Position numbers: made by a program. A DNA stretch of 62,866 nt, filler included, from an uncultured Methanosarcinales archaeon (GTDB taxonomy: Archaea > Nanobdellota > Nanobdellia > Woesearchaeales > CAYSVS01): assembly GCA_964589485.1 (NCBI GenBank). It is 3 parts of 3 records of this genome, joined end to end, with 100 filler letters (N's around TTAATTAATTAA, not from the genome) between each part and the next. Parts side by side here need not be neighbours in the genome. Positions count along the whole stretch, not along the records: positions 1 to 17,372 come from CAZPRK010000002.1; 2 more parts are not named here. One strand, 5' to 3'. Shown one piece after another: positions 6,001 through 15,000 of this stretch (within the stretch, counting starts at the first letter, position 1; every line of letters starts with the position of its first letter).

Positions 6001-9000
6001 ACAACGGGAGCTTTTGCATATCCTTATCTTGAAGATGAAGACCCATGGGGACATGCAGTAGGAATTAAGTATGTTTCTTTAGAAAAGTCTGGGTATGATC
6101 CTAGTAATGTTGAAGGAATAGATGAAGTGTTATCTTACATGGATCCATATCCTCCAGCATATGACATTTTTTTAGGAATATTACATCAAACTTCTCCAGA
6201 TATAACGTGGACTATGAAATTTTTTAATGCATTAATAATCTCATTAGGGTTTATATTTTTTTATTTATTTGTTAAACTATTTACTGCTTCAAGGAATATT
6301 GCATTATTAAGTACTTTCTTTTTAGCTTCTTTACCTTCATACTTAAGTCATTTTATTTGGGCACATTCACTTGTAATTACTGTATTTTTTCCAACATTGT
6401 ATGCGTTTTTAAAAATTAAAGAAAATAAAAATTGGTGGATTGTAGCTGCAATTTGTTTTGCAAGTATATGGGTGTCACAGAATTTAAGTCAACCTATAAA
6501 AATTTCTACAATGATGTTTCTTTTTGTTTTTGTTGGTTCAATGGCAGCTTCAAGAGTTATGAAGTATGAAATCTTAGCTTTAATTGTAGGTGGAATGTTA
6601 TCTTGGTTATGGTGGGGAGTTATGATTTTAAAATATTCCTTTACTGGGTTTTTAAGGATATATGGTGGATCAAGAACAAGTAGCATTGTAGGAGAAGGTG
6701 CAATACAACCTTCAATATTTACTAAATTACAAGGTATTATTGGAGCTTTAGTTAGTTCAGGAGGAACTGGGTCAAGAGCTTATAATTTAAATGATTTTTT
6801 AATTGCAAAAGAAACAAACATGATTAATAATCCAATTGGGATAGGATTAATTTTATCTATATTAGTTTTAGTTGCTATTGTTTATATACTCTGGAAATAT
6901 AGAACAAGTATAGTAGAAGATAATAATTCTTGGCTATTGATTACTTTATTCTGGTTAGTTTTTACATTTATGGGTGTAAATGGACAAACTTTTCCAATTT
7001 CTGTTGCAAGGGGACCTTTCCGTGTATGGATGTTAATGGCAATACCTATAGCAATTTTAACTGGATTTTTCTTTGTAAAATTATGGAACATGAAACCGTC
7101 ATTAAAACATTGGGGTATAATTTTCATATTATGGTTATTTGCTTTTTTTTATGGAAGAGGATCTTTTGATTATAGCGGAGTATATTTTACATTTACTTTA
7201 TTGATTATTATAGGCGGAGGATTAATGTATTATACTACTAAAAATGAAAATGTAAGTTATTATAGGTTTTTTTTAATATTAATTCTATTAGGTGTATTGT
7301 TAACTTCAGGAATGCAAAAAATGGCAGTTAATACTGCAATTTGGCCAACTTCAGGGAGTTATACTTCGGGAAAGGAACCTTTTGATTACGCTGCATGGTT
7401 TGATACTATTCCAGATGATACAGGAGTTTTTTTAATGTCACCAAGAGATAAATTAACTATTGGTTATGGTAAATTTAGTTGTGACTGGTGTGCTAATGTT
7501 TTAGATTTCAGGGAAGATATTTTACATAAAAATGTAGATCAAATACATTCTTTTTTGAAAAATAATAATTATGAATATTTTTTAATTAATCCTGCAATGG
7601 ACACTAAATATTTTAATAAATTATTTGGAGAAAATGAAACAAAAGTAATATTACCTCAATTTTACAATGATATGACAACTACAAGAAAATTTATGTTAGT
7701 GCATCAAGTTCCTAATAGCTTCTTTGTATTTAGGGTTAATTAAAGACGCAACCTTGGTTAGTTAACTTTCCTCCTGCTCCCATGCAGCAGTTATTAATTG
7801 TTCTAGTTTTTTGACAATATTTTTCACCAATTCTGTCACATTTATCTTGAATACATTCTTGAAAACCTTCTTGGTTTTTATCTTGGGATGCTAAAACTGA
7901 GAATATAATTAATAATACAATTAATGCATATAATAAATAAAGTATACTTTTTTGTGATATTGTCATAATGATTATTAATAATTTTATTTAGTTTATATAA
8001 TTTTGTGTTTAAATAAGATATTTATTTAAATGAAGTATTTTTCTTTATATTTATGATAAATGAATTAATTCAAGTAATGAAAAAAGCTGGTAAAGAAGTA
8101 ATGCAAGTTTATTCAACTGATTTTAAGGCTGAAGATAAAGATGGTAGTCCAATAACTGAAGCAGATAGAAAAAGTAATGATATTTTAATTAAAGAATTAA
8201 CTCAGTTTAGATTTCCTATACTTTCGGAAGAATCTGAAGATGATTCTGCAAGACTAAAAAGCGATAAAGTTTTTATTATAGATCCATTAGATGGTACGGC
8301 TGATTTTGTAAATAGAACTGGAGAATTTTCTATTATGTTAGGGTTAGTTGAAAATAATGTTCCAATATTAGGAATAGTATACGTTCCATTGTTAGATGTA
8401 ACTTATTATGCAGAGAAAGGAAAAGGTGCATATAAAATTGAAAATGGAGTTATAACTGAAATTAAATGTAGCAATGTAGAATTATTGGAAAATTCTAGAG
8501 CTATTGTAAGTAGACATCATTTTTCAGATGAAGATAAAAACTTTTTTCAACAATTAGGAATAAAAGAATTTAAACCAAAAGGATCTGCTGGTTTAAAAAT
8601 ATCAGACATTGCAGAAGGAAAAGGTGAATTGTATTTAACTTCTACAAATAAAATAAAACAATGGGATACATGTGCTGCATATTGTATAATAAAAGAAGCT
8701 GGCGGAGAAATGACCGATGTTAAAGGGAATTCTTTAGTTTATAATACTGAAAACGTTTATCATGAGAATGGAATATTAGTTAGTAATGGACAATGTCATA
8801 ATGAAATTGTACAGAAATTTAAAGATTTTCTAAATTAATAAATCTAGATAAAGTATTTTCTTTTAACCATTGAATATATTTTTCATAATCTTCAACTGTG
8901 TCAAATTCAAGCCAACCTCTGGTTGTTTCAATAGGAGTAACTTCATATCCTGCATTAATTATTGCTTGAATAATGCAAGTCATATAACTTTTTTTAAAAC

Positions 9001-12000: not shown

Positions 12001-15000
12001 AGCTTCGAAATCTTTATTAATAGTATTGTTGATTATATTAGTATTAGTTATGTTAAGTAAAGATGTTTTTAATTTATTAACTTCATCTTCGGTAAAACCA
12101 TTTGAGATAAGTTCTTTGGCTCTATCGCTAAAAGAAAAATCAAAACATGTGAATAAAATTTCAAATTCAACTTTATCTTGGAGTTCTGGATTATTTTCTA
12201 ATTTATCTAAATAGAAATTGACTAGTTTTTCTCTTAATTCATGATCTAAAGTATTAGGAATGAATGAATTAAAGCTATGCCGAACGTCAATATATGGTTT
12301 GTTTCCAAATAATACAACTAATTGTGCAGGATTAACATTATAATATCCTTGAGAAGTTCTTGCCTCGTGCCATGCAGTATTGGTTATTATGTAATCGTAT
12401 AAAGAATAGTCTAAATAATTAGGAGTATCTCCAATAATTTCGGCAGGGTTCCAATCTGGCATGTCTGCAAAAATTGTATTTTGCCCTGATAAATGTTTTT
12501 TTGGCTCAGAATAAGAATTAAATTGTATTTTTAAATTTTCTTTTAGTTCTTTAACTTCTTCATCATTATTTTCAGATAATGCTGTAGTTAATGGACGTAC
12601 TTGGAAAATTATTACTTCATCGTTTTTATTTATTGCAAATTCAATATCTAATGCTAATGAAGGAAGTAAAGATTCTATTTCTTTAACTGAATCTATTAAT
12701 TTAACAAACTTGTTAGGAATTTCTTTAGAGAAACGTGAAATTTTAATACTTTTATTTTCAATTCCTTTAGTAACACTATCTGAAGTTCCTGTTGAATCAT
12801 CGTAATTGATAACATAATAAGGGGAACTTTTTTCTAAAGTTCTAGTAAATAATACGCCTGATATGGAAATATTTTTAGTTTGATTTTGTAACAATACTTG
12901 GTTGAATGAACTTTCTGAATTTTTTCCTTTATATGATTTAATTACTTCTTTAACTGCATTTTCAATTTCTTTTTTATCGTTAGAATCTACATTTAAAATA
13001 CTTTCAAAACATCCTGCATTTGATTCTGTCATTGTATCTTCGTTCATTGCAGAACTTCTAACTACAATATTTTTTCCTTTAAAGAAATCTCTAGCTTTAT
13101 CTAAAATCTCTTCCTTTTTATTAAACCATTCTTTAACATTAATTACTAATGCTTCTTCTATTTTAGATTTTTTTAATAATGGTTTTAATGCCATTAATGT
13201 TTTAGCTTTTGTTGAAATTATAGTTTTATTTCCTTTAATTAATTCTGAATCTATATCTTGTTTTCCTTCAATTATTTGTGAAAAATCTGCAATATCTTTT
13301 ACTTTAGTTTGATTTTCTATAATGTAGTTAATTATTTTTGTAGTTGATAACCTTTCATAATAAGGATGTTGAACAATATTGCCATTAATTTCTTTAATGA
13401 ATTCTTTTCCATGAACATTTTTAATATCTGACCCGTGAACTAGAATTAATTCTGCATTTGGAAATTCTTCGTGGATTTTTTGTAAATTTTCAGTAGGATC
13501 ACGATTTTTTTGTACTATAACTTTATCTACAAAATTTAAACTAGAAATTATAGCTTTTCTTTCTTGTAAATTAGCAATAGGTTTCATTCTATATTTTTCT
13601 ACGCCTTCATCTGTAATTACACCGCAAATTAAGTAATCTGCAACAGATTTAGCAAATTTAATGGAATTTAAGTGCCCGTAGTGAAATAAGTCTCCAACTA
13701 CTCCTAAATAAGCTATTTTTTTAATGGGGCTATTGGTAATTTCAACAACATCTCCCTCTTTTATGCCTGATTCTTTAGGAACAGTGATGCATAATTGTCC
13801 ATTGGACTTATTTTGCCATACTATTTTTTTCATAGTACTAGTGTCAATAGTAGGACATATATAAATTTGACTCTTCAAATAGCTTTTTTGAGAATATCTG
13901 CAACTAATTTGTTACCTTTTACGCTAAAATGACCACCATATTGATTATCATCTGAGAATAATTCATTTAAATTAGGGTAATTAAGTAATTCCTGTGTTAA
14001 ATCAACAACTTTTATGTTGTTTTTGATTTTATCAATAAATTCAGAGTAAAAATTAGAGTTTTCTTGGATATAAGTAATGTCATCTTTTTGAGGCATCCAT
14101 AAAAATATAGGTGTAAAATTTTGTTTTTTTGCATAAGATTTGAATTCTTGAACTAATTTTGTCATTAAATTAACTGCATTTTTATCATTGTATAAATCTA
14201 CTCTTAATTTACGGTTAATATCCATTATAACTTTCATTGGTTCGGGGTATCCGCCAATTTCTTTTTTGTTAAATTTATATTTGGTAACTGAATAAATTAA
14301 CTTTAAATTTCTTTTTTTCAATATTGAAAATAAATAAGGGAACTTAATCATTTCTTTTTTAAATTTAGTTTCATAGAATGAATCGTATTTTTTTATTTCA
14401 TCTAAATATTGTGTATAATTGTAGAATTTATCTTTAGTATTGATTATATTATTAATTAATTTTAATTCATTATTTTCAATAATATATCTAGGTTTAAAAC
14501 CAAATGTATTGCCAAATTCATTATAATGTTTCCATACACACAAAACTCTTACAATAGTTGAAGGGACAACTCCCATTATTACTGTTTCAGATTTGTTTTT
14601 AGGAAATTCTTTTTTTAATCTTAATAAACTTTGATCTAAACCATAATTTCCAACTCCAAAATTTAATACATTGGATTTAGTTAATTCTGAAAGTTGCCAT
14701 GAAAATGTTTGGTTATCGTTAACTTGTCTTGCAAAAGTAAATGAATCTCCATAACAAGAAATTTTAATTGGTAAGTTTTCATGTCCTGGATTAAGTCTAG
14801 ATCCTTTTTCATTAATATTAAAAGTAGAAGTTCCAATTTTACTAATTTCTGTTTTTGAAGTGTTAGGTTTTCTAATCCAACCTAATTTAGAATCCCAGCC
14901 ATGTGTAAAAAATTTATTTAATCCTTCTTTACTTAGTTCTGGAGTTTCATCTTTTGATGTAATTAACCATTGAAAATCTTTTCTTAAATAATTAATAATA

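What a model noticed while it worked through the whole genome (the two positions that open the first line are those of the whole stretch)
8053..13833. Campylobacter-type phosphoramidate (MeOPN) donor pathway in an archaeal glycan locus
Inside the surface-glycan region of C2 lies a compact gene set for making cytidine diphosphoramidate, the precursor of the O-methyl-phosphoramidate decoration known from Campylobacter jejuni capsules. It comprises L-glutamine kinase (g00286, Cj1418 type), CTP:phosphoglutamine cytidylyltransferase (g00283, Cj1416 type) and gamma-glutamyl-CDP-amidate hydrolase (g00285, Cj1417 type). These are flanked by a CysQ-like 3',5'-bisphosphate nucleotidase (g00282) and a HIT protein (g00284). 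The glutamine kinase carries a ~200-aa N-terminal cytidylyltransferase-like domain that Cj1418 lacks. This predicts N-P modified glycans on a DPANN archaeon.
Evidence so far: swissprot.tsv: g00286 residues 208-976 align to Cj1418c 8-776 of 779 at 36% identity, E 7e-135; g00283 residues 1-247 align to Cj1416c 1-252 of 253 at 33.5%, E 1e-44. NCBIfam: g00286 hits NF004508 at 872 bits (cut-off 501, model 7-786 of 789) and hits cytidylyltransferase models at residues 37-170. The best hit of g00285 is NF045546, gamma-glutamyl-CDP-amidate hydrolase, at E 2e-26 over model 4-194 of 198 (93 bits, below the 250 cut-off). A six-frame search with NF004508 is over the cut-off in 5 of 81 sampled Woesearchaeales, this one included. 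Open frames of 982-1016 aa in 4 of them show that the fusion is conserved. The 14 control genomes gave 0 hits.
(Added by a program. Inside this text positions count along the whole contig: they may not be those of the stretch shown here. "Call 12" and the like, gene names such as g00115 and contig names such as C1 are that model's own, and its searches are not shown. The text may have been shortened before it was handed on; [...] marks where a part breaks off. The agent that wrote the report below was given it as the finding of a first reader that could run no searches.)

Follow-up and report, generated by a model that had tools for sequence, protein, structure and literature searches.

The report
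Archaeal kinase-free phosphoramidate donor gene cassette
A tiny DPANN-type archaeon carries the three enzymes that Campylobacter uses to turn glutamine into an activated phosphorus-nitrogen group for its sugar coat, in a widespread but untested variant that has an extra fused cytidylyltransferase and no activating kinase.

Summary
Window 8819-13833 encodes a glutamine kinase (NF004508, 872 bits, cut-off 501), a Cj1417-type C26 amidohydrolase and a Cj1416-type nucleotidyltransferase. This trio recurs together in 106-109 of 123 related loci from archaea and many bacterial phyla. The cassette is therefore not a rarity: at least 591 species genomes encode the kinase. This scan has already noted it in at least 35 other genomes.

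Several things differ from Campylobacter. The kinase carries an apparently active GCT/ECT-type cytidylyltransferase domain, and the Cj1416-type gene is kept as well (34 of 34 full loci). No Cj1415-type kinase exists in this 99.9%-complete genome, nor any APS-kinase domain in 6 of 9 relatives. The sulfotransferase-like partners seen in kinase-bearing loci are also absent.

The CysQ-like gene more likely serves the island's PAPS sulfation module. g00287 has an SGNH fold and is not a recognisable phosphotransferase. Two divergent CDP-alcohol-phosphotransferase genes are the best, but unproven, candidates for the transfer step.

The window is a composite: only positions 1-17372 are contiguous with the finding.

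Verdict: a new variant of a known pathway, of moderate interest.

The parts
10888..13833 (-). Fused gene g00286: GCT/ECT-type cytidylyltransferase domain plus L-glutamine kinase (981 aa from the ATG; 996 aa from a TTG at 13878)
   Evidence: NF004508 871.8 bits against a cut-off of 501. Pfam CTP_transf_like, PPDK_N and PEP-utilizers. Relatives align from residue 16, which favours the ATG start.
13321..13722 (-). Cytidylyltransferase-like domain of g00286 (residues 53-186 of the 996-aa frame), with an HYGH motif
   Evidence: PDB sequence matches to ethanolamine-phosphate cytidylyltransferase 3elb (E 1e-16), the Fom1 CyTase domain 5x3d (1e-12) and TagD 1coz (6e-10). The H, G and H of HxGH and the Ser of the LSTT stretch are each at least 95% conserved in 54 such domains.
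10903..13230 (-). Glutamine-kinase part of g00286 (residues 217-992), with a phosphohistidine swivel motif GGVASHM
   Evidence: It holds all 60 invariant columns of a 28-sequence family alignment, including the His of the SHM motif.
10244..10891 (-). Cj1417-type class-I glutamine-amidotransferase-like hydrolase (Peptidase_C26), overlapping the kinase stop codon by 4 bases
   Evidence: Its best NCBIfam family is NF045546 gamma-glutamyl-CDP-amidate hydrolase, at 94 bits and below the cut-off. Pfam PF07722 scores 117.6 bits. The family-conserved C103, H189 and E191 are present. It lies beside the kinase in 106 of 123 loci.
8819..9610 (-). Cj1416-type MobA-like nucleotidyltransferase (candidate CTP:phosphoglutamine cytidylyltransferase)
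   Evidence: Pfam NTP_transf_3 58.5 bits. It falls in one cluster with the partner gene of 109 of 123 loci, bacterial ones included. A 73%-identical protein is named L-glutamine-phosphate cytidylyltransferase by JGI, but other sources give other names. NCBIfam offers no family-specific model.
9686..10258 (+). HIT-family protein with CxxC and an HLHMQ triad variant, of the Fhit / Ap4A-phosphorylase type
   Evidence: Pfam HIT and DcpS_C. C10, C13, H106 and H108 are invariant in 9 relatives. The profile matches HIT 3r6f, Fhit and Ap4A phosphorylase. AF2 mean pLDDT is 76.4, and the Foldseek top matches are 3o0m, 3ano and Fhit. It occurs in 10 of 123 loci, all of the fused archaeal type.
13875..15053 (-). 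g00287: membrane-anchored SGNH/GDSL-fold protein, a tightly linked accessory gene of unknown role
   Evidence: One N-terminal hydrophobic helix. G102-D103-S104, G135-N136 and H375 are invariant in 26 relatives. AF2 mean pLDDT is 92.8. Foldseek finds CgnD 8a2n (1e-8), GDSL esterases, PatB and DltD. Strong homologues occur in 4 of 10 kinase-positive and 1 of 191 kinase-negative genomes of the order.
8053..8838 (+). CysQ-like 3'(2'),5'-bisphosphate nucleotidase, probably belonging to the sulfation module
   Evidence: TIGR01331 207 bits against a cut-off of 228.8, and Pfam Inositol_P 177 bits. A CysQ-like gene lies near the kinase in 5 of 123 loci, and a sixth locus has it fused to a canonical APS kinase.
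3480..4178 (+). Divergent CDP-alcohol-phosphotransferase-family membrane protein (candidate CMP-releasing transferase)
   Evidence: Pfam PF01066 44.5 bits. The signature reads DxxDGxxAR..G...D...H, so the fourth Asp is His. The family lies near the kinase in 20 of 34 fused-type and 2 of 43 other full loci.
1250..1996 (-). Second divergent CDP-alcohol-phosphotransferase-family membrane protein
   Evidence: Pfam PF01066 27.9 bits. The signature is DxxDGxxAR..G...E...G.
3..419 (-). First 139 codons of a 299-aa Sulfotransfer_1 sulfotransferase that runs off the window start (G000:C2:31972-32871)
   Evidence: Pfam Sulfotransfer_1 83.5 bits on the whole gene.
15050..16983 (-). AglJ-like GT2 glycosyltransferase (15050-15931) and GDP-mannose 4,6-dehydratase (15934-16983), lying upstream on the same strand as g00287 and g00286
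   Evidence: TIGR04182 159.6 bits (below cut-off) and TIGR01472 544 bits (above cut-off). The GT2 stop and the g00287 start overlap by 4 bases.

Best explanation
Window 8819-13833 is the core of a phosphoramidate (P-N) donor pathway.

The core chemistry is inferred by homology to the characterised Campylobacter enzymes. [quoted passage not shown] The Cj1416-type nucleotidyltransferase g00283 joins CMP from CTP to make CDP-L-glutamine. The C26 hydrolase g00285 then removes glutamate, which leaves cytidine diphosphoramidate.

This locus belongs to a distinct and widespread variant, here called fused and kinase-free. The kinase carries an additional, apparently active GCT/ECT-type cytidylyltransferase domain. 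That domain does not replace g00283. There is also no Cj1415-type 3'-kinase.

I therefore infer that the donor is used without 3'-phosphorylation. It would be passed to a lipid-linked or surface glycan by an enzyme that releases CMP. The best candidates are the two divergent CDP-alcohol-phosphotransferase-family membrane proteins of the island (1250-1996 and 3480-4178).

On the accessory genes: the extra cytidylyltransferase domain most likely belongs with that transferase. One possibility is that it cytidylylates the kinase's own product. Another is that it makes a second CDP-linked donor. Its substrate is unknown. The SGNH protein g00287 and the HIT protein g00284 are genuine but unexplained accessories of this variant. 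The CysQ-like gene most likely clears PAP from the island's sulfotransferase.
For: Core identity. NF004508 scores 872 bits against a cut-off of 501. NF045546 is the best family for g00285. The catalytic motifs are intact. JGI names 55-61%-identical proteins 'glutamine kinase', and names a 73%-identical g00283 homologue 'L-glutamine-phosphate cytidylyltransferase'.

Pathway linkage. Kinase, C26 and NTP_transf_3 genes lie together in 106-109 of 123 loci from archaea and bacteria. Natural fusions join the kinase to NTP_transf_3, to Peptidase_C26 or to APS_kinase domains.

Kinase-free state. PF01583 finds only the PAPS-synthase fusion in this 99.9%-complete genome, plus one hit below the cut-off that maps inside the FtsY gene by coordinate conversion. 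It finds nothing in 6 of 9 relatives that carry the fused kinase, 5 of them at least 95% complete. APS-kinase-like genes lie near 9 of 34 fused-type loci and near 30 of 43 other loci. The sulfotransferase-like partners occur only where an APS-kinase-like gene is present (11 of 39 against 0 of 38), and this genome has none.

The extra domain is additional. NTP_transf_3 and C26 are both present in 34 of 34 fused-type full loci. HxGH is conserved.

CDP-alcohol-phosphotransferase link. The family lies near 20 of 34 fused-type loci and 2 of 43 others. It occurs in 7 of 10 kinase-positive and 14 of 191 kinase-negative genomes of the order. In the kinase-negative genome G094, a stand-alone 139-aa relative of the fused domain sits 19 bases upstream of such a transferase.

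CysQ. The island holds a Sulfotransfer_1 gene, and the genome holds a PK-ATP-sulfurylase-APS-kinase fusion.
Against: No enzyme here was assayed and no product is known. I could make no direct alignment to Cj1415-Cj1422.

g00285 scores far below its family cut-off (94 against 250 bits). g00283 has no family-specific model, and sources name its homologues inconsistently.

The associations are counted over related loci, which are not independent. The set includes 7 pairs with identical kinase sequences.

The CDP-alcohol-phosphotransferase genes lack the canonical fourth Asp. They also occur in kinase-negative genomes. They are absent near 14 of 34 fused-type loci.

Fused-type loci can also carry an APS-kinase-like gene (9 of 34), and APS_kinase + cytidylyltransferase + kinase fusions exist. 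The extra domain is therefore not a simple substitute for Cj1415.

In two bacterial loci, CysQ sits with an APS-kinase-like gene and a methyltransferase but without sulfation genes. CysQ can therefore belong to the phosphoramidate route elsewhere.

The APS-kinase domain of the PAPS synthase could in principle phosphorylate the donor.
Confidence: 0.6

Rival explanations
1. This is a complete Campylobacter-type route. Cytidine diphosphoramidate is 3'-phosphorylated, here by the APS-kinase domain of the distant PAPS-synthase fusion. A transferase then releases 3',5'-cytidine bisphosphate, and the adjacent CysQ-like enzyme clears it.
For: The CysQ-like gene abuts the cassette, with a 20-base convergent overlap with g00283. 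Two bacterial loci place CysQ with an APS-kinase-like gene and a methyltransferase and no sulfation genes. Relatives of the fused kinase exist with an APS_kinase domain fused on. The genome does hold one APS-kinase domain.
Against: That domain is 55-60% identical to the canonical CysC-type proteins of related loci. It is only about 38% identical to the APS-kinase-like type that is fused to kinases. It sits in a sulfate-activation fusion about 55 kb away on G000:C2. Six of 9 relatives with the same fused cassette have no APS-kinase domain at all. The sulfotransferase-like partners of the kinase-bearing variant are not found in this genome. CysQ lies near the kinase in only 5 of 123 loci, and a real sulfotransferase lies in the island.
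Confidence: 0.15
2. The fused cytidylyltransferase domain and the CDP-alcohol phosphotransferases form a separate decoration module. The domain makes an ordinary CDP-alcohol, such as CDP-glycerol or CDP-ethanolamine, whose phospho-alcohol is put on the glycan or on a lipid. The phosphoramidate donor is delivered by some other, unidentified transferase.
For: The domain's nearest solved relatives are ethanolamine-phosphate and glycerol-3-phosphate cytidylyltransferases. A stand-alone relative sits directly upstream of a CDP-alcohol phosphotransferase in a genome without the kinase. The transferase family also occurs in 14 of 191 kinase-negative genomes.
Against: A fusion kept in 50 of 122 kinase genes, across archaea and several bacterial phyla, argues for a shared pathway. 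No gene that would make the phospho-alcohol was identified in the island.
Confidence: 0.25
3. The cassette makes a different end product from a phosphoramidate on a glycan. It could, for example, transfer the whole phosphoglutamine group, or make a soluble P-N nucleotide.
For: No transferase is established. The C26 enzyme is below its family cut-off. A HIT protein of the Fhit / Ap4A-phosphorylase type, a class that acts on NMP-X compounds, is embedded in the cassette. A subgroup of unfused kinases in Lachnospiraceae-type loci lacks both partner genes, so the kinase has other uses.
Against: The cassette lies inside a glycan island with flippases, glycosyltransferases and sugar-nucleotide enzymes. 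The C26 partner is kept in 34 of 34 fused-type loci.
Confidence: 0.1

Closest known systems
Campylobacter jejuni O-methyl phosphoramidate (MeOPN) pathway: Cj1418 L-glutamine kinase, Cj1416 CTP:phosphoglutamine cytidylyltransferase, Cj1417 gamma-glutamyl-CDP-amidate hydrolase, Cj1415 cytidine diphosphoramidate kinase, and the Cj1421/Cj1422 transferases (passages read in PMC11800397 and PMC3907429)
   Same: The same three enzyme families, clustered in a surface-glycan locus. The same predicted chemistry leads to cytidine diphosphoramidate.
   Different: There is an extra GCT/ECT-type cytidylyltransferase domain on the kinase and no Cj1415-type kinase. No sulfotransferase-like or Cj1421-type transferase was recognised, and no methyltransferase lies within 10 kb. 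A 178-aa methyltransferase lies about 12 kb away at G000:C2:31439-31975. The host is archaeal. SGNH, HIT and CDP-alcohol-phosphotransferase genes are added.
MeOPN-like four-gene cluster of Methanoperedens Borg elements (bioRxiv 10.1101/2024.11.05.622173, passages read)
   Same: It has an archaeal context, with glutamine-kinase, hydrolase and cytidylyltransferase assignments in a glycoconjugate region. Two cytidylyltransferase-type genes are present.
   Different: There the second cytidylyltransferase is fused to a PEP mutase, not to the kinase. The assignments rest on structure prediction. No DPANN genome is discussed in that connection.
GCT/ECT/CCT cytidylyltransferases (PF01467) and the Fom1 cytidylyltransferase-PEP mutase fusion (PDB 5x3d)
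   Same: The HxGH motif, the fold family, and fusion to a phosphorus-chemistry enzyme of the same pathway.
   Different: The substrate of the domain here is unknown. It is fused to a phosphohistidine kinase.
CDP-alcohol phosphotransferases (PF01066; archaetidylinositol-phosphate synthase, choline/ethanolamine phosphotransferases)
   Same: A polytopic membrane protein with the DxxDGxxAR nucleotide-binding part of the signature. The reaction type would fit CMP release from a CDP-linked donor.
   Different: The last Asp of the signature is His or Gly here, and is variable in the subfamily. NCBIfam scores are far below the cut-offs (47.6 against 180). The donor and acceptor are unknown.
PAPS sulfation module with CysQ (sulfotransferase, ATP sulfurylase, APS kinase, PAP phosphatase)
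   Same: A CysQ-like phosphatase, a Sulfotransfer_1 gene in the island, and a PAPS-synthase fusion in the genome.
   Different: CysQ is placed against the phosphoramidate cassette rather than beside the sulfotransferase or the PAPS synthase.

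Membership tests
L-glutamine kinase (Cj1418 type, NCBIfam NF004508) | Whole-protein score over the curated cut-off, with near full-length model coverage | tested here: met
   871.8 bits against 501, model 7-786 of 789. The six-frame search gives 872.4 bits.
L-glutamine kinase (Cj1418 type, NCBIfam NF004508) | C-terminal phosphohistidine swivel domain with the conserved His | tested here: met
   PF00391 at residues 919-988. The His of GGVASHM is invariant in 28 family members.
L-glutamine kinase (Cj1418 type, NCBIfam NF004508) | Direct similarity to Cj1418, and ATP-dependent N-phosphorylation of L-glutamine | not testable with these tools
No Campylobacter sequence was obtainable. Activity needs an assay.
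gamma-glutamyl-CDP-amidate hydrolase (Cj1417 type, NF045546) | Score over the curated cut-off | tested here: not met
   94 bits against 250. It is nevertheless the best-scoring NCBIfam family, ahead of PuuD-type at 56.5 bits.
gamma-glutamyl-CDP-amidate hydrolase (Cj1417 type, NF045546) | Class-I amidotransferase Cys-His-Glu triad and conserved position next to the kinase | tested here: met
   C103, H189 and E191 are conserved in at least 93% of 106 partners and are present here. The gene lies beside the kinase in 106 of 123 loci.
CTP:phosphoglutamine cytidylyltransferase (Cj1416 type) | MobA-like nucleotidyltransferase with the N-terminal GxGxR loop, conserved as the kinase's partner | tested here: met
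   PF12804 58.5 bits. G9, G11 and R13 are conserved. The gene shares one cluster with the partner gene of 109 of 123 loci.
CTP:phosphoglutamine cytidylyltransferase (Cj1416 type) | Family-specific sequence model or direct similarity to Cj1416 | tested here: inconclusive
   No specific NCBIfam model matched. The best solved relative is LicC, over residues 1-119 only. One JGI name fits and others do not.
Cytidine diphosphoramidate kinase (Cj1415 type, APS-kinase family) | An APS-kinase-family gene of the divergent type found beside or fused to glutamine kinases | tested here: not met
   In the genome PF01583 finds only the PAPS-synthase domain (175.9 bits), plus a 20.4-bit hit below the cut-off at C4:16332-16487. 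By coordinate conversion that hit maps inside the FtsY gene of the window.
MeOPN transferases Cj1421/Cj1422 | Sequence similarity to Cj1421/Cj1422 | not tested
   The sequences were not obtainable. Searches of this genome with two sulfotransferase-like partner proteins taken from kinase-bearing loci (L082 and L025) found no match.
GCT/ECT-type cytidylyltransferase (PF01467, TIGR00125) | HxGH motif and the C-terminal ...STT nucleotide-binding stretch (motif names recalled from the literature on this family) | tested here: met
   TIGR00125 scores 40 bits against a cut-off of 27.7. HYGH and LSTT are present. The H, G and H and the Ser are each at least 95% conserved in 54 domains.
CysQ 3'(2'),5'-bisphosphate nucleotidase (TIGR01331) | Score over the curated cut-off | tested here: not met
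   207.3 bits against 228.8. It is the best family by a wide margin, and Pfam Inositol_P scores 177.5 bits.
HIT superfamily | Histidine triad with the nucleophilic middle His, and the HIT fold | tested here: met
   HLHMQ, with H106 and H108 invariant and the third position H or Q among relatives. Foldseek finds HIT, Fhit and Ap4A phosphorylase at E 1e-7 to 1e-6.
SGNH/GDSL hydrolase-acyltransferase fold (g00287) | GDS block, GxN block, a C-terminal His, and the SGNH fold | tested here: met
   The relevant columns are invariant. AF2 mean pLDDT is 92.8. There are 23 PDB matches at E up to 0.001, and the ones listed are mostly SGNH/GDSL-type proteins. No Pfam family matched.
CDP-alcohol phosphotransferase (PF01066) | Signature DxxDGxxAR(x8)GxxxDxxxD with all four Asp (signature recalled from the literature) | tested here: not met
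   Pfam scores are over the cut-offs (44.5 and 27.9 against 22). The fourth Asp is His in 3480-4178. The third and fourth are Glu and Gly in 1250-1996. Only 6 of 34 subfamily members keep both.

The most novel reading that the evidence does not exclude
DPANN archaea and some bacteria put phosphoramidate on their surfaces by a second route that does not resemble PAPS chemistry. In this route cytidine diphosphoramidate is used directly. A divergent CDP-alcohol-phosphotransferase-type membrane enzyme releases CMP and builds a lipid-linked phosphoramidate. After flipping, the tightly co-inherited SGNH protein passes the group to the glycan through a covalent seryl intermediate. The fused cytidylyltransferase domain feeds this membrane step.
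Probability: 0.15. Interest if true: 0.75.

Novelty: new variant of a known kind. Interest (0 to 1): 0.45.

Why it matters
Papers I read still describe phosphoramidate sugar decoration as a Campylobacter speciality. PMC9561416 calls the glutamine kinase 'C. jejuni-specific'. PMC6429109 says the modification is known only from Campylobacter. PMC3907429 adds unmethylated phosphoramidate in Xanthomonas and Shewanella LPS.

The genes say otherwise. The cassette is in hundreds of species, ultra-small archaea included. At least two delivery strategies appear to exist: one PAPS-like with a 3'-kinase, and one without a kinase.

If the kinase-free route is real, it would define a new way of transferring a P-N group. 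It would also predict P-N modified surface glycans on DPANN cells, which live attached to hosts and depend on their surfaces. The fused second cytidylyltransferase is a clear and cheap biochemical question.

Tried and rejected
1. Direct comparison with Cj1415-Cj1422 failed. PDB holds no close sequence for the three core proteins. The best 80 of 591 genome-contig loci include no Campylobacter. The four Raushel-laboratory papers I asked for by PMC id are not held.

2. g00287 as the phosphoramidate transferase: its fold is SGNH/GDSL, so there is no support from known phosphotransferase folds. Its tight linkage remains unexplained.

3. The fused domain as a replacement for the Cj1416-type enzyme: rejected, because both are present in 34 of 34 full loci.

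4. The fused domain as a strict replacement for Cj1415: rejected. They co-occur in 9 of 34 loci, and triple fusions exist.

5. The thymidylate-kinase-like fusion gene at G000:C2:55279-56535 as a substitute 3'-kinase: homologues were hit in only 2 of the 123 clustered loci, so there is no association.

6. The second PF01583 hit (20.4 bits) maps, by coordinate conversion, inside the SRP54-type GTPase (FtsY) gene of the window.

7. TagF-like transferases, a lead from earlier notes: 9 hits in 9 loci, none in this island's window ORFs. Pooled with the CDP-alcohol phosphotransferases, they lie near 20 of 38 loci without an APS-kinase-like gene and near 8 of 39 with one.

8. Window genes beyond 17372 as context: dropped, because they lie on other contigs.

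Full report
**Observation.**
- g00286 (10888-13833, minus strand) hits NF004508 at 871.8 bits, against a cut-off of 501, over model positions 7-786 of 789.
- It also carries an N-terminal CTP_transf_like domain at residues 53-186 of the 996-aa frame.
- g00285 (10244-10891) has NF045546 gamma-glutamyl-CDP-amidate hydrolase as its best family, at 94 bits and below the 250 cut-off. It is a Peptidase_C26 protein.
- g00283 (8819-9610) is a MobA-like nucleotidyltransferase.
- g00284 (9686-10258) is a HIT protein.
- g00282 (8053-8838) is CysQ-like (TIGR01331, 207 bits against 228.8).

PDB holds no close sequence for these proteins. The best 80 genome loci contain no Campylobacter. The four Raushel-laboratory papers I asked for by PMC id are not held.

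**The window is a composite.** It holds five N runs. Positions 1-17372 equal G000:C2:32453-49824, and after that the sequence no longer follows C2. Window 17600-19600 is C4:128-2128, and 38183-62866 is C15:1-24684. I therefore took the true surroundings from G000:C2.
- Upstream lie a 178-aa class-I methyltransferase and a 299-aa Sulfotransfer_1 gene, whose first 139 codons are window 3-419.
- Downstream the glycan island continues. It holds a DegT aminotransferase, GT2, a formyltransferase-like gene, PMT_2, a flippase, GT4, two alkaline-phosphatase-superfamily genes and NeuB fusions.

**Is the trio a pathway?** I collected related loci from three sources: 9 genomes of the same order, 64 metagenome contigs and 80 species genomes.
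- Of these, 123 loci of at least 9 kb, the window included, gave 2131 ORFs, which I clustered by all-against-all BLAST.
- Seven pairs of loci have identical kinase sequences, so about 116 are distinct.
- The kinase cluster is in 121 loci, the g00283 cluster in 109 and the g00285 cluster in 106. Both archaeal and bacterial loci are represented.
- Natural fusions join the kinase to each partner family. I found NTP_transf_3 + kinase; kinase + Peptidase_C26; APS_kinase + kinase; CTP_transf_like + kinase; and APS_kinase + CTP_transf_like + kinase.
- The catalytic motifs are in place. The kinase keeps all 60 invariant columns of a 28-member alignment, including the His of GGVASHM. g00285 keeps C103, H189 and E191, and g00283 keeps the GxGxR loop.
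- JGI names five 55-61%-identical proteins 'glutamine kinase'. It names one 73%-identical g00283 homologue 'L-glutamine-phosphate cytidylyltransferase', though other sources call such proteins choline kinase or phosphocholine cytidylyltransferase.

[quoted passage not shown] I conclude, by homology and context, that the window's three genes make cytidine diphosphoramidate.

**How common is it?** The kinase family has 1555 representatives at E up to 1e-30 among 50%-identity clusters.
- The bacteria include Pseudomonas, Aeromonas piscicola, Chitinibacter, Catenovulum, Magnetospirillum, Lachnospiraceae, Acidobacteriota and Planctomycetota.
- The archaea include Woesearchaeota, Pacearchaeota, Altiarchaeales and a Marine Group I thaumarchaeote.
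- Within the window's order the family is patchy, at 10 of 201 genomes, and both genomes of the same genus lack it.
- This scan has noted the cassette before on other DNA: 36 notes in at least 35 genomes.

In print I found only the Borg preprint (10.1101/2024.11.05.622173, passages) for an archaeal context, and nothing on DPANN. The searches were 'glutamine kinase' + phosphoramidate; phosphoramidate + DPANN; 'phosphoglutamine cytidylyltransferase'; and Cj1418.

**What differs from Campylobacter.**

(a) The fused domain.
- It is of the GCT/ECT type. Its closest solved sequences are ethanolamine-phosphate cytidylyltransferase (1e-16), the Fom1 cytidylyltransferase domain (1e-12) and TagD (6e-10).
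- Its HxGH motif, and the Ser of the C-terminal STT stretch, are at least 95% conserved in 54 domains.
- Of the 120 closest proteins listed, 118 carry it.
- On a FastTree of 114 kinase domains, the window sits in a supported 47-row clade made almost entirely of fused archaeal forms. A few bacterial fused forms sit elsewhere.
- The domain is additional, not a substitute. Both the Cj1416-type and the C26 genes are present in all 34 fused-type loci that have at least 7 kb on both sides.

(b) The missing kinase.
- PF01583 finds only one true APS-kinase domain in this 99.9%-complete genome. It lies in a pyruvate-kinase + ATP-sulfurylase + APS-kinase fusion beside AglB, about 55 kb away on C2.
- Six of 9 relatives with the fused cassette have no APS-kinase domain at all. 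Three have canonical CysC-type genes, and one of those three also has a divergent copy in the locus.
- Across 77 loci with full flanks, an APS-kinase-like gene lies near 9 of 34 fused-type loci and near 30 of 43 others.

(c) The transferase.
- Sulfotransferase-like proteins of two kinds lie near the kinase only where an APS-kinase-like gene is also present (11 of 39 against 0 of 38). That fits a PAPS-like donor there.
- This genome has neither kind.
- Fused-type loci are instead enriched in a CDP-alcohol-phosphotransferase subfamily (20 of 34 against 2 of 43), in the SGNH protein (15 of 34 against 3 of 43) and in the HIT protein (7 of 34 against 0 of 43).
- Phyletic patterns in the order agree. 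The transferase family is in 7 of 10 kinase-positive and 14 of 191 kinase-negative genomes.
- Strong g00287 homologues are in 4 of 10 kinase-positive and 1 of 191 kinase-negative genomes. That one is a 2.8-kb contig of an 83%-complete genome.
- In the kinase-negative genome G094, a stand-alone 139-aa relative of the fused domain lies 19 bases upstream of such a transferase. The cytidylyltransferase and the membrane transferase therefore look like a module of their own.

These counts come from related loci and are not independent.

**The accessory genes.**
- g00287 has one N-terminal hydrophobic helix and invariant GDS, GxN and His columns. Its model is confident (mean pLDDT 92.8), and the PDB matches listed are mostly SGNH/GDSL-type proteins: CgnD, esterases, PatB and DltD.
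- g00287 is therefore not a recognisable phosphotransferase. Yet it is the closest-linked accessory gene, being the immediate neighbour of the kinase for 11 of 26 copies and of an APS-kinase-like gene for 10 of 26. I cannot explain this.
- The HIT protein has a CxxC pair and an invariant H-x-H. It is nearest to Fhit and Ap4A-phosphorylase-type HIT proteins. These enzymes act on NMP-X compounds, and cytidine diphosphoramidate is formally one of those. Its role, whether hydrolysis of surplus donor or nucleotidyl transfer, is a guess.
- The two CDP-alcohol-phosphotransferase homologues keep DxxDGxxAR but not the last Asp. Only 6 of 34 subfamily members keep both final Asp residues.

**CysQ.**
- A CysQ-like gene lies near the kinase in 5 of 123 loci: the window, two archaeal loci that also hold ATP sulfurylase and Sulfotransfer_1, and two bacterial loci with an APS-kinase-like gene and a methyltransferase. 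One further locus fuses CysQ to a canonical APS kinase.
- In this genome PAP is an assured substrate, because a sulfotransferase lies in the island and a PAPS synthase in the genome. 3',5'-cytidine bisphosphate has no evident source.
- I therefore assign CysQ to sulfation, without excluding a dual role.

**Mechanism proposed, with status.**

| Step | Status |
| --- | --- |
| Glutamine to phosphoglutamine (kinase part of g00286) | Inferred from strong homology |
| Phosphoglutamine to CDP-glutamine (g00283) | Inferred from context and weak homology |
| CDP-glutamine to cytidine diphosphoramidate (g00285) | Inferred from best-family match and context |
| No 3'-phosphorylation | Supported by gene absence in this and related genomes |
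| CMP-releasing transfer by a CDP-alcohol-phosphotransferase homologue, fed or assisted by the fused domain | Hypothesis from co-occurrence only |
| Roles of the SGNH and HIT proteins | Open |

**Verdict.** This is a member of a widespread, experimentally untouched variant of a known pathway. It is interesting chiefly for three questions: the unexplained second cytidylyltransferase, the kinase-free delivery, and the prediction of P-N glycans on DPANN archaea.

Noticed in passing
window 17373-17472, 32903-33002, 38083-38182: The window is a patchwork. N runs separate three pieces that map to different contigs of the same assembly: C2:32453-49824, then C4 from base 1, then C15:1-24684. In G000, C2 itself continues after 49824 with more glycan genes.
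   Followed up: yes
G000:C2:100721-103465 (L006 5722-8466): A 914-aa fusion of a pyruvate-kinase barrel, PUA_2 + ATP sulfurylase and APS kinase, lying beside AglB/STT3. A PK + ATP-sulfurylase form with a separate CysC lies in a relative's phosphoramidate locus (L021).
   Followed up: partly
loci L025, L027, L066, L069, L071, L082, L087, L143 and others: Two kinds of sulfotransferase-like proteins (about 325 aa and about 430-447 aa) lie near glutamine kinases only where an APS-kinase-like gene is present (11 of 39 against 0 of 38 full loci). They are candidates for the unknown phosphoramidate transferases of the kinase-bearing variant.
   Followed up: partly
L176 6638-7843 (G094:C6): In a genome without the glutamine kinase, a stand-alone 139-aa GCT-like cytidylyltransferase sits directly upstream of a CDP-alcohol phosphotransferase of the same subfamily as the window's.
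   Followed up: partly
window 1250-1996 and 3480-4178; cluster of 34 relatives: This CDP-alcohol-phosphotransferase subfamily keeps DxxDGxxAR, but the last Asp of the signature is usually His, Leu, Gly or another residue. Only 6 of 34 members keep both final Asp residues.
   Followed up: partly
window 13789-13833 (first ~15 codons onward of g00286): About 35 residues precede the cytidylyltransferase domain (MKKIVWQNKSNGQLCITVPKESGIKEGDVVEI...). They look like a small beta-rich module. Only some relatives have it.
   Followed up: no
L169 2360-10924 (G000:C2:20359-28923): Upstream of the glycan island lies a 1777-aa protein with FG-GAP, TcdB_toxin_midN, RHS-repeat and PKD domains. Two YD-shell/RHS fragments follow it. 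The arrangement resembles a polymorphic-toxin-like locus in a DPANN-type genome.
   Followed up: no
loci L127, L132, L139, L140, L149, L155: A subgroup of unfused kinase homologues in Lachnospiraceae/Oscillospiraceae-type genomes lacks both the C26 and the NTP_transf_3 partners. In several of these loci it sits among bactofilin, UppS, CdsA and Dxr genes, so the kinase family may have a second use.
   Followed up: no
L183 10512-15716 (G000:C2:60311-65515): Unusual fusions occur in the same island: AP_endonuc_2 + NeuB + SAF + CTP_transf_3 (876 aa), and NeuB + SAF + class-I methyltransferase (574 aa).
   Followed up: no
L183 5480-6736 (G000:C2:55279-56535): A 418-aa protein with a thymidylate-kinase-like C-terminal half lies in the island. 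Homologues were hit in only 2 of the 123 clustered loci, so I see no link to the cassette.
   Followed up: partly
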